From a virus: a stretch of 64,000 nucleotides of DNA. A program made the position numbers and the translations under genes. Every line of letters starts with the position of its first letter. Position 1 is the stretch's first letter. This document shows positions 6,783-27,402 of this stretch, in pieces. The DNA is taken from IMG/VR virus record IMGVR_UViG_3300045988_061891; one strand, written 5' to 3'. The notes beneath the pieces are model-generated. The model ran no database searches. It was not told where the DNA came from and saw only the letters and a list, made by a program, of their open reading frames with translations.

Positions 6783-7692
6783 CGTACTACTATAGTTTTC
6801 ACTACCAGATTACTCTGTTTGTAGTCTGGACTATGTCTTCACCCTTAGCTTTACCTATTAGGGTGCACCTGCATCTAGTCTCTGGGGCTGTAGCATTACC
6901 TACTATGCCTCCTCAAGTCAGTCAGTATTGTTTCCAATAAAGCCTTCGAGGATATTCAGGTGTAATAATATATTAGATTACTCTAATGCACGACATTGCA
7001 TATAATTCTTGTATTTAGTATTCTGCTTATTAGAGTTAATAGTTAAAGGAGGTAAATTTTCTAATCTGTATGAAAATCTATATCCCTTACATTGCTGATA
7101 TGTCCCATTAGTAACTCTACAAATACTAGACTCACTGATACCTAGTCTTCTAGCAGTATCTTTAAGCCCTAATGGATTCTCAAACAGCAATTTTCCCTCT
7201 AAATTATATACATATACTGTAACAGGATTAAAGTTCCATTCTAGTTTTCCTTCATTATGAAGTCTTCTTCTAGTGTCTCCTTGTTTTATCCTTGATTCTT
7301 TGGATAGAATATTTCTCTTAACTATTCTAGTTATGTTGTATTCTGCTCCAAATAAATCTATACAATATTGCTCTTTTTCTGTAAGATTGTCACAATCACA
7401 AAGTTCTAAGACAAACCATCTAAAATTACTCTCACCATACTTATCCCAAGCACTTTGCAAGTGAGGGTTCTGATGTTTATTATGCCTAAGTAAGGCAAAA
7501 TGTTTTAACAACCTTTGATATATGTTCTTTGAACTTCCTATATAGGTTTTGTGATTGATGATGTTCTCAATGCAGTATATACCAGATACTTTTAATTCCT
7601 TTGTAATCTTATTCATAATGTTTTATATTTTACTGCAAATATAAAACAAAATTTCCAAATATACAATAGAATAAATGAATTACTTAGCTTTT
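6783..7692 (-). mobile_element. group I self-splicing intron carrying a GIY-YIG homing endonuclease ORF
   Basis: Interrupts the helicase P-loop. The 3' 195 nt are GC-richer and contain R-like CAGAGACUAGAUGCAGG (6868-6886) and S-like GAAGACAUAGUCC (6828-6840) elements, giving P7 GACUA/UAGUC. The 5' exon ends in U and the intron ends in G. Confidence 0.7.
6978..7616 (-). CDS. GIY-YIG homing endonuclease (intron-encoded)
   Basis: SGIYCIENIINHKTYIGSSKNIYQRLLKH...SAWDKYGESNF...EKEQYCIDL matches the GIY-YIG, R and E/N motifs. The C-terminal region looks like an HTH DNA-binding domain. Confidence 0.8.
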   Translation of the reverse strand: MNKITKELKVSGIYCIENIINHKTYIGSSKNIYQRLLKHFALLRHNKHQNPHLQSAWDKYGESNFRWFVLELCDCDNLTEKEQYCIDLFGAEYNITRIVKRNILSKESRIKQGDTRRRLHNEGKLEWNFNPVTVYVYNLEGKLLFENPLGLKDTARRLGISESSICRVTNGTYQQCKGYRFSYRLENLPPLTINSNKQNTKYKNYMQCRALE

Positions 7693-9644: not shown

Positions 9645-10128
9645 TACTGTTTACAATCCGTTTAAGTTTATGAATATATTTAGGGTCTTCTGCATATCCT
9701 ACCCTCTGAAGAAAACTATAGTAGTCTTCAGGAGGTTTATATCTCTTTTGCACCCACTCCTTATATGCTATAACACTCTTTGTCCAGTGGTCAAATCTAT
9801 GGTACCTATTAGTCCTACTATTGTATAGACCAAACAGATTATTATGTCTCAAACATCCTACTGATGTAAAGTGTCCTGTCTCAAGCAGTGCCTGAGCATA
9901 CACTATATCAGGGTGAGTGACATCATAATATTTAAGGGCATCTGCTAAGCCCTCTTTCATAGGTTTGTCCATAAATACTGGGACAGGGGTTATAGTGTCA
10001 GGAGGTGAAGTAACATCATGATTGGGTGGTCCAGCTTTATCTTCAAATTGGTGTATGAAGATAATACCAGCTGTACATATCCCAATCATCAATGCTACTT
10101 TGATGAAGTTTTTGATTCTTTCTGTCAT
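9601..10128 (-). CDS. membrane-anchored N-acetylglucosaminidase (FlgJ/LytD-type glucosaminidase domain)
   Basis: N-terminal TM segment ALMIGICTAGIIFI, then AQALLETGHFTS...NNLFGL, characteristic of the glucosaminidase family. Confidence 0.6.
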   Translation of the reverse strand: MTERIKNFIKVALMIGICTAGIIFIHQFEDKAGPPNHDVTSPPDTITPVPVFMDKPMKEGLADALKYYDVTHPDIVYAQALLETGHFTSVGCLRHNNLFGLYNSRTNRYHRFDHWTKSVIAYKEWVQKRYKPPEDYYSFLQRVGYAEDPKYIHKLKRIVNSNDKRRSLEGSKGNS

Positions 10129-11282
10129 CTTAGTTGTTTGATGTTTGATTCAATACTATCATTGTAGTAGACATGGTCTGGTACATAGTGTAGATTATCC
10201 ACAAGAGTATCAAGAATTTTCTCTTTCCCATGGATATTGTAATGAGGGGAGCCTGAGTTGTCAAGGTAATCCCAGCTATATATGCTATACTCCTCATTAT
10301 CTATGATATGAGTCATATCCATATGTGTAACAACTAAGTTAAGAGATATATTGTACTTCTTCACATAGTTGTCTATACAGTGCCTTTCATAGGCTCTGTT
10401 AAGGAGACCCATCTCAAGGATACCTGTCTTGAAGTTTCCCTGAAACTCATTGTCTATGTTAGACTCATATTTATCAGTCAGTTTATTAGGCTCTCTGAGC
10501 CTGTGTTTAGGTTCATAGCCATTACCATGTCTGGTAGTGTAAGTCCTAGTGACAAGGTACACCTCTGCATCCTTAAGGACAGAACTTCTGAGACCATTAA
10601 GTCCCACTCTTGAAGGAGTTACATTGGGGTATAGTCCACAGTCCATGTCAAGAAGCAACCCCTGTGTTCCCTCAAATATAAGAACATTATAGTCCTTTAT
10701 TGAGGGCTTATCGGAATATACTTCTGTAAGAATCTCAAGACAGGATTTCTTAAACATATCATCATATTTAGGAATCCTCTCTATCTTGTGATAGTTTGAC
10801 GCGCACTTAAGGATATACTCAGGCTTGTCCAGACTGAAAGAGACTCTTGTCCACTGACCATGTTTATACCTCTCAAATGTAGGATATATACCCTTGCCAC
10901 AAGTTCCATCTGATATTACCTTGCTGTTGTTTCTTCCAGCAAGAACATCATAGGGTGTGATAATTCTATGTACACCACGGAATAGCTTTGGAGACACTCC
11001 TTTACACTGTAGAGTTCTGAACTCATTCATAAGACATATGGGGTCCATATATACCTCTTCTGTATACATAGTAGGTACACCAAGTAATACACCACTTCCA
11101 AAAGAGGAACAGATATGCTCTGTTCCCCCATTGAAAATAGTATGTGCTGCTTGGGGACCACCTGAGAATCTTACCACAAGTGGTTTCTTCCCTTCTTCAA
11201 TAGCCTTTTTGCAAAGCCACTGAACAGTCACCCCTTTTCCTTCATCGCCAAAGGTGTGACCCAACACTATTTTAACTTCCAT
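10125..11282 (-). CDS. adenylosuccinate synthetase family protein (PurA-like; PurZ-like cannot be excluded)
   Basis: N-terminal GHTFGDEGKGVTVQWL P-loop, GGPQAAHTI (GHT-type His) and TRHGNGY. At 385 aa it is shorter than typical bacterial PurA. Confidence 0.65.
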   Translation of the reverse strand: MEVKIVLGHTFGDEGKGVTVQWLCKKAIEEGKKPLVVRFSGGPQAAHTIFNGGTEHICSSFGSGVLLGVPTMYTEEVYMDPICLMNEFRTLQCKGVSPKLFRGVHRIITPYDVLAGRNNSKVISDGTCGKGIYPTFERYKHGQWTRVSFSLDKPEYILKCASNYHKIERIPKYDDMFKKSCLEILTEVYSDKPSIKDYNVLIFEGTQGLLLDMDCGLYPNVTPSRVGLNGLRSSVLKDAEVYLVTRTYTTRHGNGYEPKHRLREPNKLTDKYESNIDNEFQGNFKTGILEMGLLNRAYERHCIDNYVKKYNISLNLVVTHMDMTHIIDNEEYSIYSWDYLDNSGSPHYNIHGKEKILDTLVDNLHYVPDHVYYNDSIESNIKQLR

Positions 11283-12579: not shown

Positions 12580-12993
12580 TTAATCATCAAGGATTTCATA
12601 GCTGTAAGATACAGCATGAAAGTCATGTGCTAATAGGTCAAAGTGCTTCTTCAACCTCTCATGTACTGACATAGTGTCCCAAACTCTCTCTATCACATCT
12701 CCATCCTTGTTTCTTTTTGTAGGCCTAGAGAGTTTGACAGAGGTAGGAGTTGAAAGCATATACTCATATGCTTCTTCACAGATGTTGAGTTTCTGAATGG
12801 CCAACTTCTGCTTTCTGGTACGGATAACCAGAGATTTCTCTCTCTCCTTCTGATGTTTACCTTTTCCTTTGGTGAATCTGATAAGCATCTTGTCCTCATT
12901 GTAGTTCTCTTTGGGTTTTTTATCACACTCCTGCGAGCTGAGCATATTTGCACCTGGTACAAAAAAGCTCAGACTTACTTTTAATTCTGTCAT
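12580..12993 (-). CDS. hypothetical basic protein
   Basis: 137-aa ORF immediately downstream of the RNA cluster. Confidence 0.55.
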   Translation of the reverse strand: MTELKVSLSFFVPGANMLSSQECDKKPKENYNEDKMLIRFTKGKGKHQKEREKSLVIRTRKQKLAIQKLNICEEAYEYMLSTPTSVKLSRPTKRNKDGDVIERVWDTMSVHERLKKHFDLLAHDFHAVSYSYEILDD

Positions 12994-13030
12994 AAAATTA
13001 ATATAAGGTGAATAAATGTTTTCTAAAAAT

Positions 13031-13139
13031 AGCTACTTAAGTGATACATTGACAGTGTATTGCATTAACCACTATGCTAATCATTCATGGCGAATAATAT
13101 AGGATTCGAACCTATGAAGTAATAGTATTGTAAGTAGCT
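13031..13139 (-). tRNA. circularly permuted tRNA-Asp(GUC)-like gene: the 3' half precedes the 5' half, bracketed by a 9-bp helix
   Basis: Minus strand reads AGCTACTTA-CAATACTATTACTTC-[ATAGG TTCGAAT CCTAT]-ATTATTC-G-CCA-T-[GAATGAT TA GCAT AGTGGTTA ATGC A ATACA CTGTCAA TGTAT]-CACT-TAAGTAGCT. The acceptor strands pair 7/7 (one G-U). The outer 9-mers are perfect complements. Confidence 0.6.
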
Positions 13140-13143
13140 GAAG

Positions 13144-13267
13144 TAAGGCAGAGAAGAATCGAACTTCTGTTATAGGGACCCATTTTATTAATATAATATA
13201 GTGTTGTAAGTATCTTTAGATACTATATATTTATTAACCTATGTCCTAACCACTAGACGACTGCCTT
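13144..13267 (-). ncRNA. tRNA-shaped RNA with the anticodon loop replaced by a 61-nt AU-rich hairpin
   Basis: Perfect acceptor AAGGCAG/CTGCCTT, D-arm GTCT AGTGGTTA GGAC, T-arm AGAAG TTCGATT CTTCT and stem ATAGG/CCTAT enclose 13177-13237. That insert contains the ACTTACAA box. Confidence 0.5.
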
Positions 13268-13287
13268 ATGAAATTGGCACTACTTTT

Positions 13288-13362
13288 TATGCACTGATGG
13301 AATTGAACCATCTCTAATTGTACCCAAATTACAATTGTCCTAACCAAGTAGACGAAACGCAG
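13288..13362 (-). tRNA. tRNA-Gln(UUG)
   Basis: Hand-folded cloverleaf: CTGCGTT TC GTCT ACTTGGTTA GGAC .. loop ATTTGGG .. GATGG TTCAATT CCATC AGTGCAT A. Confidence 0.7.
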
Positions 13363-13387
13363 AATTATTATTGTAAGTGCCAAAAAG

Positions 13388-13495
13388 TGGGGAAGGTAGG
13401 AGTCGAACCTACATTGAATAATTTAAAAGATTATTGCTTATTTATATGATATTGTAAGTACCATTAGATACTATGTCCGTTTTAGCTACTTCCCC
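13388..13495 (-). tRNA. tRNA-Lys(UUU)-like gene interrupted by a 34-nt insert between the D-arm and the anticodon arm
   Basis: GGGGAAG TA GCTA AAACGGACA TAGT A [insert 13435-13468] ATAAT CTTTTAA ATTAT TCAAT GTAGG TTCGACT CCTAC CTTCCCC A. The insert folds as ATGGTA-CTTACAA-TATCAT. Confidence 0.55.
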
Positions 13496-13512
13496 TTGTG
13501 TAGTCACTATTT

Positions 13513-13586
13513 ATGTACATGTTAGAATCGAACTAACTACCCTTGAATTACCAGTTCAATGCTCTAACCAAATGAGCTAATGTTAT
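13513..13586 (-). tRNA. tRNA-Thr(GGU), acceptor stem unpaired at 1-3:70-72
   Basis: TA GCTC ATTTGGTTA GAGC A TTGAA CTGGTAA TTCAA GGGTA GTTAG TTCGATT CTAAC. The acceptor ATAACAT/ATGTACA pairs only at positions 4-7. Confidence 0.55.
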
Positions 13587-13650
13587 TAGTATTGTAAGTG
13601 ACTTCATTCCAATTCTTCAATTGGACAATAATTTAACAAGCTTAAATTGC

Positions 13651-13774
13651 GCCTATCATAGGGATTCGAACCCACTTTTTACTGACCTCTTCATCTCATA
13701 CCTACCTAGGTCAGTATGAGATTGCACAGCTTTTGGAATTCTTAATATGTGCACTAATAAGAATTCATGATAGG
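13651..13774 (-). ncRNA. 124-nt tRNA-like RNA (acceptor-type terminal helix plus T-loop, expanded body)
   Basis: CCTATCA...TGATAGG is a perfect 7-bp terminal helix. T-loop GGGTTCGAATCCC. 9-bp hairpin GAATTCTTA/TAAGAATTC. Interleaved complements ATCTCATAC/GTATGAGAT and CTGACCT/AGGTCAG. Confidence 0.4.
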
Positions 13775-13783
13775 CCTTAGTAA

Positions 13784-13810
13784 GTATAGGAGGCATCACT
13801 CCTCCTATAC
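13784..13810 (-). other. 10-bp stem-loop (GTATAGGAGG / CCTCCTATAC) running into a TACTTACTAAGG box
   Basis: Perfect inverted repeat with a 7-nt loop and no U-tract. It lies between the vWA gene and the 124-nt RNA. Confidence 0.5.
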
Positions 13811-13816
13811 CTTTAT

Positions 13817-13876
13817 TGATACTTAATAGCATTGATATTAACTTTTAAATGAGCTATAAAAATGTTGTAAGTATCA
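13817..13876 (-). other. ACTTACAA-box unit: 9-bp bracket helix TGATACTTA / TAAGTATCA enclosing a 42-nt segment
   Basis: Same architecture as the brackets around the tRNAs, but the enclosed sequence has only an ATAGC/GCTAT hairpin. Confidence 0.4.
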
Positions 13877-13891
13877 TTGGCTTTTGAACTA

Positions 13892-15715
13892 TTAAAGCAC
13901 GTTTTCTCTTACTATATCATATCTATTACTCCTAAATAATGATTGTAAAGGAGTATAGACATCCATAATATCCATATCTTTGAAGTTAGTTAAGAACTGT
14001 TCAATCTGCGCTACATTAGCAGGGATATAAATCATGTTCTCAATACCTTCAAATCTGTCGATAGAAGCACTATTGAAACCCCAACCACCATCTACATCAA
14101 TAGCTACAATATATGGCTTAAATCCAAAGTATCTTTGACACTTCATCATAAAGGCATTCATTGAAGCCTCAGGAGACTTTAATGAGTTCCACTCACCATC
14201 GCTGATGATAGTCCATACAGGATAGTTCTTTAGAGCATCAAGTATCTGAGGATTATTCTGACATTCTTTGTGCAAATCATCAGGTATGTTACTGATGTAA
14301 GTACAACCACCTTGGAATACTGCCTTACAGAAGCTCTTGATAGATTGATAGTTCTCATAGAAACTCTTCTTAGGGTCAACAAAAGGAGTTTGCTTGGTTT
14401 TTACTGTTTCACTTCTGATGAAAGAGTTTACAGAGTTATTCTTTCTGTCTATACAAGTATGCCAGTGACTTCTACTATTGAAGAAACCAAGTAAGTTTCT
14501 ACCATCATCATCTGGATTCTTACATAGACATACAGAAGCTAAGAATGTAGCAAAGTTAAAGGGACTACCGCCCATAGAGCCCGAATCATCTATAATCACA
14601 AGACTATTATAAGGAAGATTAACCTTAGTCATGAATGTTTCAAGCTTTAATTTATCTACATTATCACAACAGATGTCATTATATAGCTCTTTGAAGTTAG
14701 TTGCTCCTACAGTAACTTTAGCCTGCTTTGCAACTTTCTTCAACTTGATTTTATCTTCCTCTGTAGCCTGTCCCTGTCTAACCTTTTCTTCTAGAACTCT
14801 TTGTTCAGCTTGCTTAGATTCCTTGTATTTCTCCCATTCAGCAAGCCAAGGCTGGAACTTAGAATATTTAGCTTCTTCAGTATCTTTAATTTTACTGTAA
14901 AGAATTCTGTTCTTAACTCTAAATCTTGCTTGTGAAGGAAGCTTGTCAAACCAATCAATAAATGATTGTTCGTCAAACTCATTGATTTTACCTGTAGAGA
15001 ACAGTACTGACTCGAGGTCACCATTATAATCCTTTCTCCATTTCCTGTAGCCTTTGAAGTTTGCATAGTTTTCGCTTACTTCATACTCCCAACCCATAAG
15101 CTCTGAGAGCATTATGAGTAACTTGACCTTATCTTCCATTACCTTTTTAGTTTCAGGAAGCATCTTTTTATGATTGCTTCTTTTACTTACTCTAGGAAGT
15201 GTCAAGAATTTAGCAACAAGAGTTTTATTGAAAGGATTATTACTGTTGATAACCTTATAGAGGTAGTTTACAATAACCTCTCTGTATTTTGCTTCAGCAA
15301 AGAGATTGTGTATTCTGGTAACTCTAGAACCCTTTGTCTGTACTCTATTTCTAAACAGTAAGTCAAAGCAAGTATATTCATTGAACAAACCTGCTTCAAG
15401 GAACTTCACAAATTGAGTTTGACGTTTCTTCCACATCCACTCAAGGACTACTTGAAAACCTTCTCTATTGGCATTACCACCACTATCCTTCTTAATACCC
15501 TTAAAGATATTATGTTGTCTAGCTGTAATATCACCAATTGAGAAAAGTAAACTAAAGAACATTTGCTTATGCTCCTTATTCCATCGAACTTCTGACCAAC
15601 AAGCATCAAGTAATGCTGTGTCAATCGTGTTGCCTACACTCTGAAAGAGTTTAAGGCAATTCTTTAACCCATAAAAAGGATTATCGTTACTTTTATTTAA
15701 CTTTACCTGTACCAT
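13892..15715 (-). CDS. DUF2828-like helical domain plus von Willebrand factor A (vWA) domain protein
   Basis: 607 aa. MIDAS motif in VIIDDSGSMGG. The N-terminal ~370 aa are helical (NPFYGL...LLDACW...FSIGDITARQ...LEWMW), resembling DUF2828-type proteins (family name recalled, not searched). Confidence 0.65.
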   Translation of the reverse strand: MVQVKLNKSNDNPFYGLKNCLKLFQSVGNTIDTALLDACWSEVRWNKEHKQMFFSLLFSIGDITARQHNIFKGIKKDSGGNANREGFQVVLEWMWKKRQTQFVKFLEAGLFNEYTCFDLLFRNRVQTKGSRVTRIHNLFAEAKYREVIVNYLYKVINSNNPFNKTLVAKFLTLPRVSKRSNHKKMLPETKKVMEDKVKLLIMLSELMGWEYEVSENYANFKGYRKWRKDYNGDLESVLFSTGKINEFDEQSFIDWFDKLPSQARFRVKNRILYSKIKDTEEAKYSKFQPWLAEWEKYKESKQAEQRVLEEKVRQGQATEEDKIKLKKVAKQAKVTVGATNFKELYNDICCDNVDKLKLETFMTKVNLPYNSLVIIDDSGSMGGSPFNFATFLASVCLCKNPDDDGRNLLGFFNSRSHWHTCIDRKNNSVNSFIRSETVKTKQTPFVDPKKSFYENYQSIKSFCKAVFQGGCTYISNIPDDLHKECQNNPQILDALKNYPVWTIISDGEWNSLKSPEASMNAFMMKCQRYFGFKPYIVAIDVDGGWGFNSASIDRFEGIENMIYIPANVAQIEQFLTNFKDMDIMDVYTPLQSLFRSNRYDIVRENVL

Positions 15716-15737
15716 TTGCTAATGTTTTATTTTATTT

Positions 15738-15745
15738 TTGTAAGT
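15738..15745 (-). promoter_or_regulatory. ACTTACAA box about 20 nt upstream of the vWA gene start (candidate promoter element)
   Basis: Minus strand reads CGTTACTTACAAAAATAAAATAAAACATTAGCAAATG. The same 8-mer occurs 6 more times in 13128-13872. Confidence 0.35.
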
Positions 15746-15800
15746 AACGTAGTTAGGATATTCTTTTTATCTTTGAACTATATATGTCTTCCTTATACTA

Positions 15801-23896: not shown

Positions 23897-23967
23897 TGCC
23901 ACTTGGTGTAATGGTAACACATCAGTTTTTGGCACTGAGTTTAGAGGTTCAACCCCTCTAGTGGCAA
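23897..23967 (+). tRNA. tRNA-Gln(UUG)
   Basis: TGCCACT TG GTGT AATGGTA ACAC A TCAGT TTTTGGC ACTGA GTTT AGAGG TTCAACC CCTCT AGTGGCA A. Confidence 0.75.
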
Positions 23968-23972
23968 CAAAT

Positions 23973-24044
23973 GCTCCCTTAGTATAAAGGATAATGCAAT
24001 AGTCTTCTAAACTATGAATAAAGGTTCGATTCCTTTAGGGAGTA
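23973..24044 (+). tRNA. tRNA-Arg(UCU)
   Basis: GCTCCCT TA GTAT AAAGGATA ATGC A ATAGT CTTCTAA ACTAT GAAT AAAGG TTCGATT CCTTT AGGGAGT A. Confidence 0.75.
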
Positions 24045-24134
24045 CAAAGTTGTTTGTAATAGACTAAATTTTGTGCAAAGATAACGAAGAATTCATTAAC
24101 CTGCCCAGCCTGAGAAGGTGCAAGTAGGGTGCAT

Positions 24135-24208
24135 GATGCCTTAGAGTAATTGGTCAACTCGTCACTCTTTCAAGGTGAAGATTATGGGTTCAAGTCCCAT
24201 AGGCATTA
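24135..24208 (+). tRNA. tRNA-Glu(UUC)
   Basis: GATGCCT TA GAGT AATTGGTCA ACTC G TCACT CTTTCAA GGTGA AGATT ATGGG TTCAAGT CCCAT AGGCATT A. Confidence 0.75.
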
Positions 24209-24215
24209 CATATAT

Positions 24216-24289
24216 AGCTCATGAAGTGTAATGGTTTTGCATATCACACTGTCAATGTGAGGGAAGGGGTTCAATTCCCCCATGGGCTG
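24216..24289 (+). tRNA. tRNA-Asp(GUC)
   Basis: Anticodon arm TCACA CTGTCAA TGTGA and T-loop GGGG TTCAATT CCCC. The acceptor register is ambiguous by 1 nt. Confidence 0.65.
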
Positions 24290-24323
24290 CTGGTTATGTG
24301 ATAAAGGCTCAGAGGAGCCGACT

Positions 24324-24415
24324 GGAAGTTTAATCAGTAGGAGCTGAAAGATTCTCTTGGAAAAGAGAGGATTGACCTATGGAAAGGTATAGGGGTTCGA
24401 GTCCCCAAACTTCCT
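24324..24415 (+). tRNA. type II tRNA-Ser(GGA)-like with an 8-nt anticodon loop
   Basis: GGAAGTT/AACTTCC acceptor, D-arm TCAG TAGGAG CTGA, stem TTCTC/GAGAG enclosing TTGGAAAA, variable arm ACCT ATGGAA AGGT, T-loop GGGG TTCGAGT CCCC. Confidence 0.5.
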
Positions 24416-24417
24416 CT

Positions 24418-24615
24418 ATGATTCAAATTTTTAGAAAAGAAGGGTGGGTACTCAACCCTAATGATAAAGTAGTCAACTCAATACTTAAGAGAGTTGAACA
24501 GAACAATGGATTATGTCCCTGTCAGAATGACTCTGAGGATAAGCACTGCCCTTGTTCTAATTACAGAGTACTAGACCACTGTTGCTGTGGTCTATATAAG
24601 AAACTTGGAGAGTAA
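24418..24615 (+). CDS. ferredoxin-thioredoxin reductase catalytic-subunit-like small protein
   Basis: ORF trimmed to MIQIFRKEGW because the upstream part is a tRNA. Cys pattern LCPCQ...HCPC...HCCCGLY resembles the FTR-beta CPC..CPC..CHC signature. Confidence 0.5.
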   Translation: MIQIFRKEGWVLNPNDKVVNSILKRVEQNNGLCPCQNDSEDKHCPCSNYRVLDHCCCGLYKKLGE

Positions 24616-24694
24616 ATCTACTAGGAGTAGGACTGTCCTGCTAAGACAAGTGGTCATGTAAAAAGTGGCTTTGGTTCGAGTCCAATACTCTCCT
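24607..24694 (+). tRNA. tRNA-Ser(GCU), type II; its 5' end overlaps the last codons of the FTR-like ORF
   Basis: GGAGAGT/ACTCTCC perfect acceptor, anticodon arm TGTC CTGCTAA GACA, long variable arm, T-loop TTGG TTCGAGT CCAA. Confidence 0.65.
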
Positions 24695-24700
24695 CTATAT

Positions 24701-24773
24701 ATAGTAGTAGCTCAATTGGCAGAGTCCTAGGTTTGGGACCTAGATGTTGAAGGTTCGAGTCCTTTCTACTATA
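24701..24773 (+). tRNA. tRNA-Pro(UGG)
   Basis: ATAGTAG TA GCTC AATTGGCA GAGT C CTAGG TTTGGGA CCTAG ATGTT GAAGG TTCGAGT CCTTT CTACTAT A. Confidence 0.75.
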
Positions 24774-24780
24774 CTAAAAT

Positions 24781-24853
24781 GGGCTCTTAGTTAAGCTGGC
24801 TATAACACCTGCCTTGCAAGCAGGAGTCCTGGGTTCAAGTCCCAGTTAGTCCA
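24781..24853 (+). tRNA. tRNA-Ala(UGC)
   Basis: G3:U70 present. CCTGC CTTGCAA GCAGG; CTGGG TTCAAGT CCCAG. Acceptor pairs 6:67 and 7:66 are mismatched. Confidence 0.65.
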
Positions 24854-24937
24854 CTTTGTTTTCTTGTTTTCATAAAATTATATGACCATTGTTAGTCCCT
24901 CTTTTTGGTAGTTAGAGGCTAAAGAAACTGCCCATTT

Positions 24938-25008
24938 TGGGATATAGCTCGAAGGTCGGGCGTGAGACTGTTAATCTCTTGGTGAGAGTTCGATTCTCTC
25001 TATCCCAG
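24938..25008 (+). tRNA. tRNA-Asn(GUU)
   Basis: TGGGATA TA GCTC GAAGGTC GGGC G TGAGA CTGTTAA TCTCT TGGT GAGAG TTCGATT CTCTC TATCCCA G. Confidence 0.75.
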
Positions 25009-25142
25009 CATATAATAAAGAGAATAGTACTAGTGTAAGACTCAACGTAACTTAAAGGCTTTGTAAAATATAATGTAAGTTTAGCCCTTTTGAATGTCGT
25101 ATTATTCATCCTAGCTACAGGGAATGGTTAAAGGTAGCATAC

Positions 25143-25217
25143 ATTGGTGTAGCTCAATGGTAGAGCAGTAGTCTCCAAAACTACAGGTTGTAGGTTCAAG
25201 TCCTGCCACCTTTGCCA
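25143..25217 (+). tRNA. tRNA-Trp(CCA) with encoded CCA; acceptor positions 2:71 and 3:70 are U-U
   Basis: ATTGGTG TA GCTC AATGGTA GAGC A GTAGT CTCCAAA ACTAC AGGTT GTAGG TTCAAGT CCTGC CACCTTT G CCA. Confidence 0.65.
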
Positions 25218-25220
25218 TAC

Positions 25221-25294
25221 TGGGATATAGCTTAGATGGTCAAAGCATCTGACTGATATTCAGAGGACCGTAGGTTCAAGTCCTACTATCCCAA
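25221..25294 (+). tRNA. tRNA-Ile(GAU)
   Basis: TGGGATA TA GCTT AGATGGTCA AAGC A TCTGA CTGATAT TCAGA GGACC GTAGG TTCAAGT CCTAC TATCCCA A. Confidence 0.75.
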
Positions 25295-25296
25295 CT

Positions 25297-25366
25297 GTGT
25301 TGTTAGCTTATAGGTAAAGTGTCTCACTGTGGATGAGAAGAAGAGGGTTCGAGTCCCCACAACACC
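25297..25366 (+). tRNA. tRNA-His(GUG); no encoded G-1, T-arm one nt short
   Basis: GTGTTGT TA GCTT ATAGGTA AAGT G TCTCA CTGTGGA TGAGA .. GGG TTCGAGT CCCC ACAACAC C. Confidence 0.6.
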
Positions 25367-25476
25367 CCTGCTCATGAGTGGCATGGTAGTTCCTGGGGTG
25401 GTTTCAAACTGCTATGTCTAATTAACCCCCTTACAAGTTCTTTGTAAGGCACAGCCTGCTTAATAGCAGGCTTTAT

Positions 25477-25548
25477 GTCTCCTTAGCCAAGTTGGTAAGG
25501 CAAGGGTCTGCAAAACCCTCATCATTGGTTCAAGTCCAATAGGAGACT
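25477..25548 (+). tRNA. tRNA-Cys(GCA)
   Basis: GTCTCCT TA GCCA AGTTGGTAA GGCA AGGGT CTGCAAA ACCCT CATC ATTGG TTCAAGT CCAAT AGGAGAC T (U73). Confidence 0.75.
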
Positions 25549-25643
25549 CTAATAGAGGAGGCGGTGTAAATCCTTTCCTAGGGTGAAGTAGTCTAACTTA
25601 GGTATGACTACTGGGAGACAACCTCTATAAAAACACCGCGCCA

Positions 25644-25715
25644 CTTCCTATAGCTTAATGGTAGAGCTCCTGACTTTTAATCAGAAGGTTCTAGGTTCGA
25701 GTCCTAGTAGGAAGA
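25644..25715 (+). tRNA. tRNA-Lys(UUU)
   Basis: CTTCCTA TA GCTT AATGGTA GAGC T CCTGA CTTTTAA TCAGA AGGTT CTAGG TTCGAGT CCTAG TAGGAAG A. Confidence 0.75.
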
Positions 25716-25898
25716 CATAACATTTTTAACTCCAAATTAATAAAGTGTTATGAGAGTACTTAGTTTTATTAAGAAAGCAGCTAAAGCTTATTTCAGAGTG
25801 GCTGCTAAGAACTATTCCATAAGGTGTACAGGAGATGTATTCATTCCTGCTCCTTAAGGATAGTTCCTCTTCTTTTACCTTATTAGATTAAATGATAT

Positions 25899-25980
25899 GG
25901 GAGCATCGCATAGTGGCAATTGCAGCTGACTGTAAATCAGCCCTCATTAGAGTTCATAGGTTCGAGTCCTCTTGCTCCCA
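25899..25980 (+). tRNA. tRNA-Tyr(GUA), type II
   Basis: GGGAGCA TC GCAT AGTGGCAA TTGC A GCTGA CTGTAAA TCAGC, variable arm CCTCATTAGAG.., T-loop AGG TTCGAGT CCT, TGCTCCC A. Confidence 0.7.
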
Positions 25981-25992
25981 CTATTAAAATAT

Positions 25993-26066
25993 GGAAACTT
26001 GGTGTAGTTGGTTTGTCACGTAAGATTGAAGCTCTTGAGGCTGAGGTTCGATTCCTTGAGTTTCCA
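25993..26066 (+). tRNA. tRNA-Phe(GAA)
   Basis: GGAAACT TG GTGT AGTTGGTTTG TCAC G TAAGA TTGAAGC TCTTG AGGC TGAGG TTCGATT CCTTG AGTTTCC A. Confidence 0.7.
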
Positions 26067-26080
26067 CTAAATTTTATGAT

Positions 26081-26680
26081 ATGACTACATTAAAATTAGG
26101 TAGTAGAGGTAATGAAGTAAAGACTCTACAGAGTAAGTTAAACCTTATAGCTGATGGCATCTTTGGTCCTATAACTGAAGAGGTAGTTAAGGATTTCCAG
26201 AAGAAGAATGGTCTTACTGCTGATGGAGTAGTTGGTCCTAGTACATGGGATAAACTAGGAGTTACTAATAGCAGGTATATCAATGAGATTATTGTACATT
26301 GTAGTGCTACTGCTGAAGGTAAAGACTTTACAGTGGCTGATATAAAGAAGTGGCACTTGGCAAGAGGATTCTCTGACATAGGTTACCATTATGTAATATA
26401 TAGAGATGGTTCCATAAATAAGGGTAGGGATGAATCAAAGATTGGTGCACATTGTACAGGTCATAACTCACACTCTATTGGAGTATGTTACATTGGAGGA
26501 TGTGCTTCTGATGGCAAGACTCCCAAAGACACAAGGACTGCTGCTCAAAAGAAAGCTCTGTTAGAGCTACTGAAAGAGCTCAAAAAGAAGTATCCAAAGG
26601 CATCTATACACTCTCACAGGGACTATGCCAATAAGGCTTGTCCATCCTTTGATGCTACAAAGGAATATTCTTCTATTTGA
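26081..26680 (+). CDS. endolysin: peptidoglycan-binding domain plus N-acetylmuramoyl-L-alanine amidase (Amidase_2/PGRP type)
   Basis: LKLGSRGNEVKTLQSKLN...DGIFGP...GLTADGVVGPSTW is a PG_binding_1 pattern. IIVHCSAT...WHLARGFSDIGYHYVIYRDG...GAHCTGHNSHSIGVCYIGG is the amidase core. Confidence 0.8.
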   Translation: MTTLKLGSRGNEVKTLQSKLNLIADGIFGPITEEVVKDFQKKNGLTADGVVGPSTWDKLGVTNSRYINEIIVHCSATAEGKDFTVADIKKWHLARGFSDIGYHYVIYRDGSINKGRDESKIGAHCTGHNSHSIGVCYIGGCASDGKTPKDTRTAAQKKALLELLKELKKKYPKASIHSHRDYANKACPSFDATKEYSSI

Positions 26681-26688
26681 AATAGAGT

Positions 26689-26771
26689 GCTTCTGTGGTG
26701 GAACTAGTATACATGACAAGCTTAAACCTTGTTGCCCATAGGGATTATGGGTTCAAGTCCCACCAGAAGTA
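26689..26771 (+). tRNA. tRNA-Leu(UAA), type II
   Basis: GCTTCTG/CAGAAGT acceptor, ACAAG CTTAAAC CTTGT, variable arm CCC ATA GGG, T-loop TGGG TTCAAGT CCCA. Confidence 0.7.
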
Positions 26772-26776
26772 CAAAT

Positions 26777-26864
26777 GCCCAAGTGATGGAACTGGTATAC
26801 ATAATAGTCTTAGAAACTATGCCGAAGTAATAGTAGGATGTGGGTTCGACTCCCACCTTGGGTA
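26777..26864 (+). tRNA. tRNA-Leu(UAG), type II
   Basis: GCCCAAG/CTTGGGT acceptor, ATAGT CTTAGAA ACTAT, long variable arm, GTGGG TTCGACT CCCAC. Confidence 0.7.
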
Positions 26865-26865
26865 C

Positions 26866-27303
26866 ATGATAAGAACAGATATATTAGAGAGAAAGGCTGA
26901 CATATTAAATTGGATAGCCAACAAGGAATCTAACACTGAAATTGCAAGAAGACTTAACTGTAAGTTAGACACTCTCAAGTCCTACTATAGGAAAATGGGT
27001 ATCACCTATGCAGGTAATCAGGGTATGAAGGGTAAGAAGTCAGACCCTAAAAGAAAGTCTGCACTGGAAATACTAGGAAGCCTAAGTTTCTCTAACTCAG
27101 CTAAGAGAATTAGGCTAATAGAAGATGGAATAAAAGAAGAGAGGTGTGAATGTTGTGGACTATTGGAATGGATGGGAAAACCTATTCCACTTGAACTCCA
27201 TCATAAAGATTTCAATCATTACAACAACTCCTTAGATAATTTACAAATATTATGTGCAAATTGTCACATGCAGGCTCATAACTATTGTAACACTATAAAG
27301 TAG
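26866..27303 (+). CDS. HNH homing endonuclease
   Basis: ORF trimmed to MIRTDILERK because the listed N-terminal 57 codons are two tRNA-Leu genes. C-terminal CECCG...ELHHKDFNHYNNSLDNLQILCANCH is a classic HNH motif. Confidence 0.75.
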   Translation: MIRTDILERKADILNWIANKESNTEIARRLNCKLDTLKSYYRKMGITYAGNQGMKGKKSDPKRKSALEILGSLSFSNSAKRIRLIEDGIKEERCECCGLLEWMGKPIPLELHHKDFNHYNNSLDNLQILCANCHMQAHNYCNTIK

Positions 27304-27324
27304 GTTCGAGTCCTACATGGGGTA
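27300..27324 (+). pseudogene. orphan tRNA 3' fragment (T-arm plus 3' acceptor strand) abutting the HNH stop codon
   Basis: GTAGG TTCGAGT CCTAC ATGGGGT A. No matching 5' acceptor strand (ACCCCAT or a wobble variant) was found upstream. Confidence 0.55.
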
Positions 27325-27402
27325 CTATGAAGAGGTATTATTAGTTATCTTTCCTTCTCTTCACTTTTATTTGCATTCATCTTAAAAATAATCATCAAAT
27401 TA

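What the first reader, a model, noticed from the sequence alone, without database searches (positions are those of the whole stretch)
13031..13139. Circularly permuted tRNA-Asp(GUC): the 3' half is encoded upstream of the 5' half and closed by a perfect 9-bp helix
On the minus strand the order is bracket AGCUACUUA, 15 nt, T-arm (AUAGG UUCGAAU CCUAU), 3' acceptor AUUAUUC, G73, CCA and one U. These are followed by 5' acceptor GAAUGAU, D-arm (GCAU AGUGGUUA AUGC), anticodon arm (AUACA CUGUCAA UGUAU), CACU and bracket UAAGUAGCU. The acceptor strands pair 7/7. G73 fits what I recall as an Asp identity element. No T-arm follows the 5' half. The two outer 9-mers are exact complements that would join the RNA ends where the variable loop should be. 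Permuted tRNA genes are known from a red alga and a few other lineages; I know of no phage example (not searched). RNase P and 3' processing at the G-CCA-U-G junction would give either a two-piece tRNA held by 7+9 bp or a precursor for ligation.
Basis: seen in the sequence. Interest (0 to 1): 0.9.

Follow-up and report, generated by a model that had tools for sequence, protein, structure and literature searches.

The report
Permuted tRNA mimic in crAss-like phage
A gut (crAss-like) phage encodes a conserved small RNA built like a tRNA whose two halves are swapped. It is one of an array of tRNA-derived RNAs that share a conserved stem next to a Ro60-like protein gene, so it most likely belongs to the known "Y RNA" tRNA mimics, in a new and richer form.

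Summary
In detail: on the minus strand, 13139..13031 reads closing-stem arm, T arm, 3' acceptor, G-CCA-U, 5' acceptor, D arm, anticodon arm (GUC), closing-stem arm. It is not chance. Twenty-four homologous cassettes in related crAss-like contigs keep all five helices, with compensatory changes in 25 of 30 pairs. The tertiary 15:48 pair covaries in 24 of 24.

- The 9-bp bracket is not special to this gene. It is the generic stem of about 190 cassettes that carry the motif G-N-Y-ACUUACAA. Some of these enclose normal tRNAs, and one encloses the start of the neighbouring 607-aa gene.
- The anticodon differs between close orthologs (GUC, GAU, GUU, UCA, UUU, UGU, UCU, CGU), or the whole arm is deleted.
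- The 607-aa gene encodes a helical-repeat + vWA/MIDAS protein whose best solved structural match is bacterial Ro60. In phage crAss001 the syntenic gene is a true TROVE/Ro60 gene.

The topology is that of YrlA-type Y RNAs, which the literature already calls permuted tRNA mimics. New here are the canonical anticodon arm, the enriched encoded CCA, a new motif, a divergent protein partner, and arrays of permuted, interrupted and enclosed tRNAs. A real two-piece, chargeable tRNA is not excluded.

The parts
13131..13139 (-). 5' arm of the closing stem (AGCUACUUA); overlaps the conserved motif
   Evidence: Pairs with 13031-13039. In 24 homologs, 7 of the 9 pairs change on both sides and 92% of cells are paired.
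13123..13138 (-). Conserved cassette motif G-N-Y-ACUUACAA-Y-A-N-U-A (here G-C-U-ACUUACAA-U-A-C-U-A); candidate protein-binding 5' strand. It contains a -10-like TACAAT.
   Evidence: Logo from 164 distinct instances; G at -2 in 95%. Strictly on the sense strand in all 27 related loci. 92% of 190 instances are base-paired. TACAAT noted.
13116..13130 (-). Single-stranded tail or 'V' region, CAAUACUAUUACUUC. It ends in C48, the tertiary partner of G15.
   Evidence: The nucleotide just 5' of the T stem covaries with D-loop nt 15: G:C in 15 and A:U in 9 of 24, with no exception.
13099..13115 (-). T arm AUAGG UUCGAAU CCUAU
   Evidence: 100% paired; 4 of 5 pairs covary across 24 cassettes.
13092..13098 (-). 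3' acceptor strand AUUAUUC
   Evidence: Pairs 7/7 with 13080-13086. 6 of 7 pairs change on both sides in the 24 homologs.
13087..13091 (-). Junction loop G73-CCA-U that closes the acceptor helix; predicted RNase P / 3'-trimming site
   Evidence: Hypervariable in sequence and length (2-11 nt) among homologs. N73-CCA is enriched. Cleavage itself is inferred from the M. smegmatis YrlA precedent.
13080..13086 (-). 5' acceptor strand GAAUGAU
13062..13079 (-). U8-A9 linker and D arm GCAU AGUGGUUA AUGC (A14, G15, G18G19 present)
   Evidence: The UA linker is conserved as in YrlA.
13044..13060 (-). Anticodon arm AUACA CUGUCAA UGUAU; anticodon GUC at 13051-13053
   Evidence: The stem covaries at 5 of 5 pairs. 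The loop frame Y-U-NNN-A-A is kept but the triplet differs among orthologs, or the arm is deleted.
13040..13043 (-). CACU linker (positions 44-47 equivalent)
13031..13039 (-). 3' arm of the closing stem (UAAGUAGCU)
13892..15715 (-). 607-aa gene 753 nt upstream on the same strand: helical-repeat N-domain plus vWA/MIDAS C-domain (Ro60-like architecture); candidate protein partner of the motif stem
   Evidence: No Pfam or PHROG hit. AF2 model pLDDT 86, pTM 0.80. Top PDB fold hit is D. radiodurans Ro/Rsr 2nvo, E 6.8e-5 and the only full-length alignment, but TM is only 0.25-0.29. hhalign to the crAss001 Ro60 family gives 93.7%, E 1.9e-7, over the vWA start only. It occupies the syntenic slot of the crAss001 TROVE gene Gp96. 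Distant homologs (28-29% id) are also flanked by motif-bearing tRNA-like genes.
15685..15749 (-). The same motif and stem (CGUUACUU ... AAGUAACG) enclosing the 5' UTR and start codon of the 607-aa gene; possible autoregulatory site
   Evidence: Present in all 27 relatives with covarying arms: AGTTACT/AGTAACT, TGTTACT/AGTAACA, ATGTTACTT/AAGTAACAT, AGGACACTT/AAGTGTCCT.
13145..13267 (-). Sister cassette: tRNA-like gene with an open 7/7 acceptor (AAGGCAG/CUGCCUU). A 61-nt insert carrying a capped motif hairpin (AGUAUC-UAAA-GAUACU+UACAAC) replaces the anticodon loop.
   Evidence: Rfam tRNA 44.5 bits with 61-nt insertion.
13274..13383 (-). Sister cassette: motif stem UUGGCACU/AGUGCCAA enclosing an ordinary tRNA-Gln(UUG)
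13389..13495 (-). Sister cassette: tRNA-like gene with open acceptor GGGGAAG/CUUCCCC, a motif hairpin inserted in the D-loop region, and an anticodon-like arm AUAAU CUUUUAA AUUAU
   Evidence: (weak tmRNA-like hit). The anticodon arm was read by eye.
13502..13603 (-). Sister cassette: motif stem AGUCACU/AGUGACU enclosing a tRNA (anticodon GGU) with a weak acceptor top
13817..13876 (-). Sister cassette: motif stem UGAUACUUA/UAAGUAUCA enclosing 42 nt with no tRNA features

Best explanation
The locus encodes a roughly 110-nt structured RNA with circularly permuted tRNA topology, which is the topology of YrlA-type bacterial and phage Y RNAs. It is the last of seven cassettes that lie just downstream of, and on the same strand as, a Ro60-like (helical-repeat + vWA/MIDAS) gene in a crAss-like (Steigviridae-related) phage.

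Shown:
- The RNA folds as a tRNA L-shape, with acceptor, D, T and anticodon helices and the 15:48 tertiary pair.
- Its acceptor end is closed by a short loop.
- Its own 5' and 3' ends pair in a short stem whose 5' strand carries the motif G-N-Y-ACUUACAA-Y-A.
- The same stem and motif close nearly all other cassettes, and also the translation-start region of the protein gene.

Inferred:
- The stem and motif are the binding site of the neighbouring Ro60-like protein, which would also autoregulate its own mRNA.
- The 7-bp acceptor hairpin is cut by host RNase P 5' of G1. The upstream piece is trimmed to the encoded G73-CCA, as happens to M. smegmatis YrlA. The result is a nicked two-piece tRNA-like RNA held together by 7 + 9 bp.
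- The tRNA-like module, including an anticodon loop that changes quickly between strains, serves as the 'effector' end. It would bring the protein to, or decoy, a host tRNA-binding factor.

Whether the RNA is aminoacylated is open.
For: Topology and fold:
- Element order and coordinates.
- Covariation in all five helices.
- The Levitt pair covaries in 24 of 24 cassettes, with the UA linker, G18G19 and a pyrimidine at the end of the V region as in YrlA.

Generic nature of the stem:
- Motif logo and strand bias.
- 141 of 190 instances have a downstream partner of >=7 bp and 33 have a local hairpin partner.
- Stems enclose normal tRNAs and the ORF start.

Protein link:
- The motif lies about 30 nt upstream of the ATG of the 607-aa gene in all 27 relatives, with a covarying partner inside the ORF.
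- In the window, intergenic motif copies occur only at this gene and in its downstream cluster.
- The AF2 model's best PDB match is Ro/Rsr.
- Its vWA domain is homologous to the crAss001 Ro60 vWA. Weak profile hits to TROVE proteins.
- In crAss001 the syntenic gene is TROVE + vWA_Ro60. It is followed by unannotated tRNA-like genes and a related repeated motif, TTACTTCAA, found only there.
- Homologs of the 607-aa protein at only 28-29% identity are again adjacent to ACTTACAA-bearing interrupted or permuted tRNA-like genes, once next to a Thg1-like gene.

Precedent:
- YrlA RNAs are encoded within 4 kb of Ro60 on the same strand, several per locus, and the 5' strand is the main Ro60 contact.
- RNase P cleavage plus CCA addition is documented for a YrlA with a 7-bp acceptor stem: PMC4201824.
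- They are described as 'resembling circularly permuted tRNAs': 10.1101/312249.
- A phage Ro60 with Y-like RNAs has been characterised: PMC12135203.
Against: - The canonical Ro60-binding motif (GNCGAAN0-1G / CGAA) is absent.
- No Rfam family other than tRNA and a weak tmRNA hit matches the region.
- The N-terminal domain of the 607-aa protein shows no sequence-level TROVE signal.
- The Rsr fold match has low TM (0.25-0.29). The best viral fold matches are DUF7788/vWA proteins of unknown function.
- The motif contains a -10-like TACAAT and sits upstream of every unit, so a promoter role is possible.
- The crAss001 motif copies show no clear closing stems.
- Described YrlA RNAs lack an anticodon loop and a free CCA. 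This RNA has a canonical anticodon arm and an encoded CCA, and CCA is enriched in such cassettes. These features point toward real tRNA-type use.
- No expression or binding data are available.
Confidence: 0.6

Rival explanations
1. It is a genuine circularly permuted tRNA gene. The transcript is opened at the acceptor loop by RNase P and 3' trimming to G73-CCA. It then works in translation as an aminoacylated tRNA (Asp in this strain). It would be either a two-piece molecule clamped by the acceptor and closing stems, or a contiguous tRNA after excision of the closing stem and tail followed by ligation.
For: - The un-permuted sequence is a canonical 76-nt tRNA-Asp(gtc) for ARAGORN.
- It has a 7-bp acceptor, G73, and a canonical 7-nt anticodon loop with U33 and A37.
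- The anticodon stem covaries at 5 of 5 pairs.
- N73-CCA is enriched relative to ordinary phage tRNAs: 5/19 against 5/158, P=0.0015. It occurs in 7 of 15 orthologs that keep the anticodon arm and in 0 of 7 that lost it.
- Some interrupted sister genes would regain a perfect D arm if the motif insert were excised, for example L016 8799-8926.
Against: - The anticodon identity is not conserved among near-identical orthologs, and the acceptor and discriminator do not change in step with it.
- The arm is cleanly deleted in 7 of 22 orthologs while the rest stays conserved.
- CCA is absent in most cassettes, and junction loops can be as short as 2-4 nt.
- There is no bulge-helix-bulge. No splicing endonuclease, RtcB or RNA ligase was found among about 40 window ORFs scanned.
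- A 15-nt tail plus a 9-bp stem would remain in the variable region of a two-piece form.
- A normal tRNA-Asp(GUC) is already encoded.
- The closing stem is generic to all cassettes, not tRNA-specific.
Confidence: 0.22
2. The motif is a phage-specific promoter (-10-like TACAAT) placed in front of each small gene. The 'permuted tRNA' would then be a by-product of cassette shuffling among tandem tRNA genes, with the T arm and 3' acceptor from one tRNA and the 5' half from the next, and no function as a single RNA.
For: - The motif is sense-oriented and precedes every unit, including the protein gene at a suitable distance from the ATG.
- It contains TACAAT.
- Cassette order differs between relatives.
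- The covariance model also picks up true tandem-tRNA junctions at low score, e.g. window 23921-24034. Chen et al. warn of this type of false positive.
Against: - A promoter does not explain why 92% of motif copies are base-paired to a covarying partner.
- It does not explain why the two acceptor strands of the permuted cassettes stay complementary through 6 of 7 double-sided changes.
- It does not explain why nt 15 and 48, which lie on opposite sides of the junction, covary in 24 of 24 cassettes.
- No -35-like conservation is seen.
- The junction is hypervariable while the flanking arms are nearly invariant.
Confidence: 0.08
3. The RNA is a free-standing tRNA decoy, independent of the neighbouring protein. 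It would be a non-chargeable or nicked tRNA look-alike whose anticodon loop titrates host anticodon nucleases or other anticodon-reading defence or modification enzymes.
For: - The loop frame is kept but the anticodon triplet turns over rapidly among close relatives, consistent with an arms race.
- The first enclosed tRNA of the cluster shows the same turnover in orthologs: GGT, GAT, GGA, GCT, TCA, TTT.
- The closed acceptor end would keep the RNA out of translation.
Against: - No host nuclease is identified.
- It does not explain the conserved closing stem and motif, or the tight linkage to the 607-aa gene family across 28-98% identity.
- The arm is dispensable in many relatives.
Confidence: 0.1

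Closest known systems
YrlA-type bacterial/phage Y RNAs (tRNA-mimic partners of Ro60/Rsr; Chen et al. 2014 PMC4201824; Wang et al. 2018 preprint 10.1101/312249)
   Same: - Same order: conserved 5' strand, V region, T arm, closed acceptor-like stem-loop, D arm, 3' strand pairing with the 5' end.
- UA linker, T/D-loop signature, a pyrimidine ending the V region, and covariation of 15:48.
- Several RNAs per locus, on the same strand and within 1 kb of a vWA-containing, Ro60-like gene.
- A 7-bp acceptor stem like M. smegmatis YrlA, which is cut by RNase P and receives CCA.
- Already described as 'resembling circularly permuted tRNAs'.
   Different: - It has a complete anticodon arm with a canonical loop, so the closing stem sits at the variable-arm position rather than replacing the anticodon stem.
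- The CCA is encoded in the loop.
- The conserved 5'-strand motif is G-N-Y-ACUUACAA, not GNCGAAN0-1G.
- The protein partner lacks a recognisable TROVE signature.
- The same stem also wraps normal tRNAs, is inserted as a capped hairpin inside other tRNA-like genes, and flanks the start of the protein's own mRNA.
- There are arrays of 5-9 cassettes.
Circularly permuted tRNA genes of Cyanidioschyzon merolae, prasinophyte algae, nucleomorphs and Thermofilum pendens (Soma 2007; Maruyama 2010; Chan 2011; cited and own knowledge)
   Same: - The 3' half is encoded upstream of the 5' half with a short linker between the acceptor strands.
- The RNA termini pair near the anticodon/variable region.
- Un-permutation gives a canonical cloverleaf.
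   Different: - Those genes use a bulge-helix-bulge motif, the archaeal/eukaryal splicing endonuclease, a ligase and a circular intermediate. None of these is evident here.
- Their anticodon identity is conserved, whereas here it is not.
- This is a bacteriophage of Bacteroidota.
Split and multi-position-intron tRNA genes of Archaea (Nanoarchaeum split tRNAs; non-canonical BHB introns) - own knowledge
   Same: One shared helix module appears in three interconvertible gene layouts: enclosing, interrupting (D loop or anticodon region) and permuting tRNA bodies. This parallels the way intron-containing, split and permuted tRNAs share the BHB motif.
   Different: The helix here is a plain 7-9-bp stem with a conserved single-stranded tail. 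No splicing machinery is known in the host or seen in the window, and removal of the module has not been shown.
Thermus phage phiLo Ro60 with Yrl1/Yrl2 (PMC12135203)
   Same: A phage-encoded Ro60-type protein with two Y-like RNAs next to its gene. It is proposed to modulate host RNA turnover.
   Different: The phiLo RNAs carry the CGAA motif and a stem-bulge-stem, and the protein is a recognisable TROVE protein. No tRNA anticodon arm or CCA is reported there.
Two-piece (circularly permuted) tmRNA genes of alpha-proteobacteria and cyanobacteria - own knowledge
   Same: A permuted gene order yields a two-piece tRNA-like molecule whose acceptor/T-arm domain is assembled from separate strands.
   Different: There is no tag reading frame and there are no pseudoknots. 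ARAGORN finds no tmRNA, and Rfam tmRNA hits in the cluster are far below threshold.

Membership tests
YrlA-type Y RNA | Order 5' strand - V region - T arm - closed acceptor-like stem-loop - D arm - 3' strand that pairs with the 5' end | tested here: met
YrlA-type Y RNA | tRNA tertiary signature: UA linker between the acceptor-like stem and the D arm, conserved T and D loops, a pyrimidine at the end of the V region, and covarying 15:48 Levitt pair | tested here: met
   G15:C48 in 15 and A15:U48 in 9 of 24 cassettes. The 8-9 linker is UA in 16 of 24 and UN in 23 of 24; one cassette (L022) has AU. Criteria taken.
YrlA-type Y RNA | Encoded within about 4 kb of a Ro60/TROVE ortholog on the same strand | tested here: inconclusive
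   The neighbouring 607-aa gene is 753 nt away on the same strand. It has Ro60-like architecture: the top PDB fold hit is Rsr, its vWA domain is homologous to the crAss001 Ro60 vWA, and it is syntenic with the crAss001 TROVE gene. However, there is no TROVE hit by Pfam or by profile search.
YrlA-type Y RNA | Conserved GNCGAAN0-1G (CGAA) Ro60-binding motif near the 5' end | tested here: not met
   The 5' strand instead carries G-N-Y-ACUUACAA-Y-A.
YrlA-type Y RNA | Match to a curated Y RNA covariance model | tested here: not met
   An Rfam E-value scan of 12700-13900 returned only tRNA and weak tmRNA hits, plus chance hits to unrelated families far below their thresholds. I could not verify which Y RNA families are in the library.
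YrlA-type Y RNA | Bound by Ro60 in vivo | not testable with these tools
   Needs RIP/EMSA.
Circularly permuted tRNA gene (algal/archaeal type) | 3' half upstream of the 5' half; complementary acceptor strands separated by a short linker; canonical cloverleaf after un-permutation | tested here: met
Circularly permuted tRNA gene (algal/archaeal type) | Bulge-helix-bulge motif formed by the paired termini | tested here: not met
   The termini form a plain 9-bp helix flanked by 15 nt on one side and 4 nt on the other.
Circularly permuted tRNA gene (algal/archaeal type) | Anticodon/isoacceptor identity conserved among orthologs | tested here: not met
   Eight different anticodons, and arm loss, among 22 orthologs.
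Circularly permuted tRNA gene (algal/archaeal type) | Processing through a circular intermediate to a contiguous mature tRNA by splicing endonuclease and ligase | not testable with these tools
   No such enzymes were found among the scanned window ORFs. RNA data are needed.
Tandem (dimeric) tRNA junction or decayed tRNA pseudogene | The T arm and 3' acceptor belong to one tRNA and the 5' half to another, so the two acceptor strands need not pair or covary | tested here: not met
   The strands pair 7/7 and covary at 6 of 7 positions. There is no 5' half upstream and no T arm downstream.
Two-piece tmRNA | Tag reading frame, pseudoknots, detection by ARAGORN or Rfam tmRNA models | tested here: not met
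Sigma-70-type promoter (for the motif) | -35 and -10 hexamers at 16-18 nt spacing; transcription start about 7 nt after the -10 | tested here: inconclusive
   A -10-like TACAAT lies inside the motif, but there is no conserved -35. The start site cannot be tested here.

The most novel reading that the evidence does not exclude
crAss-like phages may carry a bacterial-virus counterpart of the archaeal intron/split/permuted tRNA system. One protein-recognised helix module (G-N-Y-ACUUACAA stem plus tail) marks tRNA genes that are enclosed, interrupted (D loop or anticodon loop) or circularly permuted. The Ro60-like protein would guide their processing, by RNase P opening and possibly by excision and ligation, into chargeable tRNAs that are two-piece or rejoined. 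Their anticodons would be reprogrammed rapidly between strains. This would make the locus the first true permuted tRNA gene outside archaea and eukaryotes.
Probability: 0.15. Interest if true: 0.95.

Novelty: new variant of a known kind. Interest (0 to 1): 0.72.

Why it matters
crAss-like phages are the most abundant viruses of the human gut, yet I found nothing in the searchable literature about Ro60-type proteins or Y-like RNAs in them.

If the reading is right, several things follow:
- These phages carry arrays of tRNA-derived RNAs tied to a divergent Ro60-like protein through a new, deeply conserved RNA motif. This would give a sequence handle (ACUUACAA stem) for finding such RNAs, and a testable partner for a large family of unannotated phage vWA proteins.
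- It would extend the Y RNA/tRNA-mimic concept to molecules that keep a canonical anticodon loop and an encoded CCA end. The question of whether Y-type tRNA mimics are ever charged or read by anticodon-recognising factors would become directly testable.
- The rapid anticodon turnover suggests an arms-race function, such as decoying or sensing host tRNA-targeting defences.
- It also warns annotators. Standard tRNA finders miss or mis-call these genes: ARAGORN misses the permuted one, and Rfam mis-assembles it.

Tried and rejected
1. Decayed ordinary tRNA at 13009-13086 (the Rfam 33.4-bit call). Rejected: its 'T arm' is unpaired, and the downstream pseudo-acceptor ATTTATTC is not kept in relatives.
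2. Remnant of tandem tRNA-Asp copies. Rejected by covariation, and because the upstream neighbour is an unrelated tRNA-like gene ending 5 nt before the 5' arm.
3. DNA similarity to GenBank phages (blastn distant) and tblastn of the 607-aa protein gave no match. Relatives had to come from IMG/VR and metagenomes.
4. A generic T-arm pattern scan of IMG/VR hit unrelated tRNAs and was useless.
5. Single-sequence AF2 of the 607-aa protein was uninformative, pLDDT 41.
6. Profile searches of the 607-aa family against PDB sequences gave no match with 17 sequences. With 61 sequences they gave only weak vWA-level hits.
7. Pfam on 10 distant homologs gave only weak vWA/DUF7788 hits.
8. A G-U versus A-C census in the closing stems, meant to decide RNA-level against DNA-level pairing, was inconclusive: 6 against 9, mostly at helix ends.
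9. Closing stems around the crAss001 motif copies were not found.
10. RNA ligase, RtcB, splicing endonuclease or a TROVE domain among about 40 window ORFs: none found.
11. The crAss001 paper PMC8375218 holds no phage promoter or ncRNA data. The phi14:2 paper reports no motif for early promoters and sigma-70-like middle promoters, without a sequence I could compare.
12. A literature search for the motif string found nothing relevant.
13. Group I intron, ribozyme, integron attC, MITE and N4-type hairpin-promoter readings of the motif were considered. They were set aside on size, on the lack of a conserved core beyond the stem and tail, and because the partner arm lies 36-120 nt away in most copies.
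Full report
**1. The observation**

- AGCUACUUA (13139-13131)
- 15 nt (13130-13116)
- T arm AUAGG UUCGAAU CCUAU (13115-13099)
- 3' acceptor AUUAUUC (13098-13092)
- G73, CCA, U (13091-13087)
- 5' acceptor GAAUGAU (13086-13080)
- UA and the D arm (13079-13062), then A26
- anticodon arm AUACA CUGUCAA UGUAU (13060-13044, anticodon GUC)
- CACU (13043-13040)
- UAAGUAGCU (13039-13031)

ARAGORN does not report the gene. Rfam's tRNA model scores 33.4 bits for 13009-13086 only by pairing the 5' half with a very poor downstream 'T arm' and the string ATTTATTC. That string is not conserved in relatives. If the two halves are joined in silico (13086..13040 + 13116..13091 + CCA), ARAGORN calls a canonical 76-nt tRNA-Asp(gtc).

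**2. It is conserved and structured**

The 607-aa ORF just upstream (13892-15715, minus strand) retrieved 27 related IMG/VR loci at 50-98% protein identity. Ten of them hold a close ortholog of the element. In these:
- The T arm, the D arm and both closing arms are almost invariant.
- The loop between the acceptor strands is hypervariable in sequence and length.
- The acceptor helix keeps pairing through compensatory changes.

A covariance model built from them finds 24 cassettes at E<1e-6. On that alignment:
- 96% of pair cells are standard pairs, against 73.7 +/- 1.1% in shuffles and 35-40% when partners are slid.
- 25 of 30 pairs change on both sides.
- There are 133 compensatory cells against 33.8 +/- 4.6 expected, and no shuffle reaches this.
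- All five helices covary: closing stem 7/9, T 4/5, acceptor 6/7, D 3/4, anticodon 5/5.

The alignment was fitted to the model, which favours the structure, but the margin is large. An independent test that does not depend on the model agrees. Of 57 distinct T arms lying <=50 nt after the motif, 24 have a 7/7 complement of their 3' acceptor strand 1-25 nt downstream, against 0/57 and 1/57 in two controls.

The tertiary Levitt pair also covaries without exception. The nucleotide just 5' of the T stem lies upstream of the junction in the permuted gene. The second D-loop nucleotide lies downstream of the junction. Together they are G15:C48 in 15 cassettes and A15:U48 in 9. The RNA therefore folds as a tRNA L-shape.

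**3. The bracket is generic**

The 5' arm overlaps a motif, (T/C)ACTTACAA, that recurs seven times on the minus strand between 13128 and 13873 and once 23 nt upstream of the ATG of the 607-aa ORF. Across the relatives:
- The motif is strictly on the sense strand.
- It is always present about 30 nt before that ORF's start, and 3-9 times in the cluster downstream.
- Its logo is G-N-Y-ACTTACAA-Y-A-N-T-A, with no conserved -35-like element.

Of 190 distinct copies, 141 have a perfect partner of >=7 bp lying 36-120 nt downstream. That partner includes the variable positions -1, -3 and -4, where chance would give about 6% by my rough estimate. A further 33 have only a local upstream hairpin partner, and 16 have neither.

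The stems enclose whatever lies between them:
- ordinary tRNAs (window tRNA-Gln 13274-13383; tRNA(GGU) 13502-13603)
- a 42-nt non-tRNA segment (13817-13876)
- the 5' UTR and first codons of the 607-aa ORF (15685-15749, with arms covarying among relatives even inside the coding sequence)
- permuted tRNA bodies

In a second layout the stem is capped by a small loop and sits inside a tRNA-like gene whose acceptor strands still pair 7/7 across the insert. This holds for 34 of 38 distinct cases. The window examples are 13145-13267 (insert replaces the anticodon loop) and 13389-13495 (insert in the D-loop region). The permuted and interrupted layouts are circular permutations of one another. So the 9-bp helix is a shared module, not an adaptation that joins this tRNA's halves.

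**4. What varies**

A metagenome scan plus IMG/VR gave 22 distinct orthologs with the same closing stem (GCTACTT/AGTAGC) and T arm.
- The anticodon stem and the loop frame (Y-U-NNN-A-A) are kept, but the triplet is GTC, GAT, GTT, TCA, TTT, TGT, TCT or CGT.
- In 7 orthologs the whole arm is absent, and the closing stem then follows the D arm directly, as in YrlA.
- The first enclosed tRNA of the cluster shows the same anticodon turnover.

N73-CCA placed exactly after the 3' acceptor strand occurs in 5 of 19 sequence clusters of permuted cassettes. Ordinary tRNAs of the same contigs have it in 5 of 158 (Fisher P=0.0015), and the background trinucleotide frequency is 0.8% (P=4e-7). Among the orthologs of this gene it is found in 7 of 15 with an anticodon arm and in 0 of 7 without. 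However, a distant armless cassette (L221) also has it.

**5. The neighbourhood**

PHROG hits identify a crAss-like phage. The capsid protein is 78% identical to that of Bacteroides phage crAss001, family Steigviridae.

In crAss001 the syntenic slot (peptidoglycan hydrolase, SPFH gene, small ORFs, then an unannotated gap of about 900 bp) is followed by Gp96, annotated 'RNA-binding protein'. Gp96 is a TROVE (E 5.5e-13) + vWA_Ro60 protein, that is, a Ro60 ortholog. The gap holds interrupted tRNA-like genes and four copies of a related motif, TTACTTCAA. On that strand the motif occurs nowhere else in the 50 kb examined.

The window's 607-aa protein is not detectably similar to Gp96 by tblastn, and it has no Pfam or PHROG hit. 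One database source names it after CobT, a vWA protein. The evidence on its fold is:
- With a 61-sequence alignment, AlphaFold gives a confident model (pLDDT 86.3, pTM 0.80): an all-helical N-domain (about 1-365) and an alpha/beta C-domain with an invariant DxSxS MIDAS motif.
- Its best match in the PDB is D. radiodurans Ro/Rsr (2nvo, E 6.8e-5), the only full-length alignment. TM is low (0.25-0.29), and all other hits are isolated vWA domains.
- Profile-profile comparison with the Gp96 family gives 93.7% probability (E 1.9e-7), but only over the end of the helical domain and the start of the vWA domain.
- Profile search against PDB sequences gives weak hits to TROVE proteins at the same position.
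- The best viral fold matches are DUF7788/vWA proteins of unknown function.

I therefore call the protein Ro60-like in architecture. Its membership of the TROVE family is unproven.

The link between this protein family and the RNA module is deep:
- A homolog at 28% identity (L216) has three interrupted tRNA-like genes in the 438-nt gap next to it, on the same strand. Each carries ACTTACAA after a small hairpin, and two end in N73-CCA. A Thg1-like gene lies beside them.
- A homolog at 29% identity (L221) is preceded by TACTTACAAAAC motifs, a permuted cassette with T-CCA in the junction, and an enclosed tRNA.
- Two further contexts have T loops within 1 kb on the same strand. One context (L217) has none.

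**6. Comparison with what is known**

Chen et al. 2014 (PMC4201824) describe YrlA Y RNAs as follows:
- a conserved motif near the 5' end, with Ro60 contacting mainly the 5' strand
- then a V region, a T arm, an acceptor-like stem-loop, a D arm, and a 3' strand pairing with the 5' end
- 15:48 covariation
- several RNAs per locus, within 4 kb of Ro60 on the same strand
- presence in phages as well as bacteria
- M. smegmatis YrlA, whose acceptor stem is 7 bp, is cleaved by RNase P and acquires CCA in vivo, and the two halves stay associated with Rsr

Wang et al. [quoted passage not shown] They also state that YrlA lacks an anticodon loop and a free CCA. A Thermus phage Ro60 with two Y-like RNAs was characterised in 2025 (PMC12135203).

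The present RNA shares the topology, the tertiary signature and the genomic logic. It differs in having a canonical anticodon arm, an encoded CCA, another 5'-strand motif, a divergent partner protein, and the use of the same stem around normal tRNAs, inside tRNA-like genes and on the partner's own mRNA. It does not meet the defining features of algal/archaeal permuted tRNA genes other than gene order: there is no bulge-helix-bulge, no conserved identity and no known enzymes. I found no paper on Ro60 or Y-like RNAs, or on split or permuted tRNAs, in crAss-like phages.

**7. Most likely mechanism**

Shown:
- A selected tRNA-shaped RNA with a closed acceptor end and paired termini.
- A shared, sequence-specific stem module.
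- Tight linkage to one protein family.

Inferred:
- The protein binds the stem and motif, including the copy on its own mRNA, which would give autoregulation.
- RNase P opens the acceptor loop 5' of G13086. The upstream piece is trimmed to ...G-CCA. An encoded RCCA would also help RNase P act on a tight loop (own knowledge of the RCCA-RNase P RNA interaction).
- The nicked molecule stays together through the 7-bp and 9-bp helices.
- The tRNA-like end, with a fast-evolving anticodon, engages a host tRNA-binding factor.

I put about 0.6 on this YrlA-like reading. The rivals are about 0.22 for a chargeable, decoding permuted tRNA, about 0.1 for a protein-independent decoy, and about 0.08 for promoter plus recombination debris.

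The main weaknesses are the unproven TROVE homology, the -10-like TACAAT inside the motif, the missing closing stems in crAss001, and the lack of any RNA or binding data.

**8. Verdict**

This is a new variant of a known kind (the Y RNA/YrlA tRNA mimic) rather than the first phage permuted tRNA. Its features keep the more radical reading open. The wider system it reveals, in the most abundant gut phages, is worth experimental follow-up.

Noticed in passing
window 13145-13267 and 13389-13495 (minus); also L016 8799-8926, L013 8392-8514, L216 2591-2939: 'Interrupted' tRNA-like genes: perfect 7-bp acceptor stems span a 30-60-nt insert carrying a capped motif hairpin, placed in the anticodon loop or the D loop. 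In some (L016, L013), removing the insert would restore a perfect D arm and leave a complete tRNA with an anticodon. This is intron-like, but no splicing mechanism is known for it.
   Followed up: partly
window 13650-13810 (minus): A 9-bp hairpin TATAGGAGG/CCTCCTATA runs into the motif variant TACTTACTA. It is followed by a roughly 125-nt tRNA-like element with an 8-bp acceptor (GCCTATCA/TGATAGGC), a long internal hairpin and a T-loop-like GGGTTCGAATCCC. Rfam gives only a sub-threshold tmRNA hit (10.7 bits).
   Followed up: no
window 13502-13603 (minus) and orthologs (L014 7937, L018 7878, L013 7348, L016 8427, L024 2730, L021 9133): The first enclosed tRNA of the cluster keeps its D arm but changes anticodon between relatives (GGT, GAT, GGA, GCT, TCA, TTT). 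In the window copy the top three acceptor pairs are mismatched; Rfam matches only model positions 4-67.
   Followed up: partly
window 23897-27693 (plus): A conventional array of 21 tRNA genes covers most amino acids and lacks the ACTTACAA motif. In the ARAGORN output nearly all of these tRNAs end in a C after the discriminator but do not continue to CCA. ARAGORN also reports an odd 'tRNA-???' with a 4-base anticodon (ggaa) at 24324-24416.
   Followed up: no
window 10125-11282 (minus): An adenylosuccinate-synthetase-like gene (Pfam E 3e-30, N-terminal two thirds of the profile). It lies between the peptidoglycan hydrolase and SPFH genes and is absent from the syntenic region of crAss001. It could be a PurZ-type enzyme (2-aminoadenine DNA); this was not examined.
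   Followed up: no
window 6978-7616 (minus): A GIY-YIG + NUMOD homing-endonuclease-like ORF among the replication genes.
   Followed up: no
L028 (crAss001, NC_049977.1) 43286-44190, i.e. record 95965-96869: This cultured phage has an unannotated gap downstream of its Ro60 ortholog Gp96. The gap contains at least two interrupted tRNA-like genes (GGAGGGA.../...TCCCTCC and GGGGATG.../...CATCCCC) and four TTACTTCAA motifs. It would be a ready experimental system for phage Y-like RNAs.
   Followed up: partly
L216 531-1346: A Thg1-like (tRNA 3'-5' polymerase/repair) gene sits next to the tRNA-like cluster and a distant homolog of the 607-aa protein. This hints at an RNA-repair context for the family.
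   Followed up: no
L011 8524-8644, L167: Orthologs of the permuted cassette carry anticodon UCA, which would read UGA. This is of interest because some crAss-like phages recode stop codons. The coding of those contigs was not checked.
   Followed up: no
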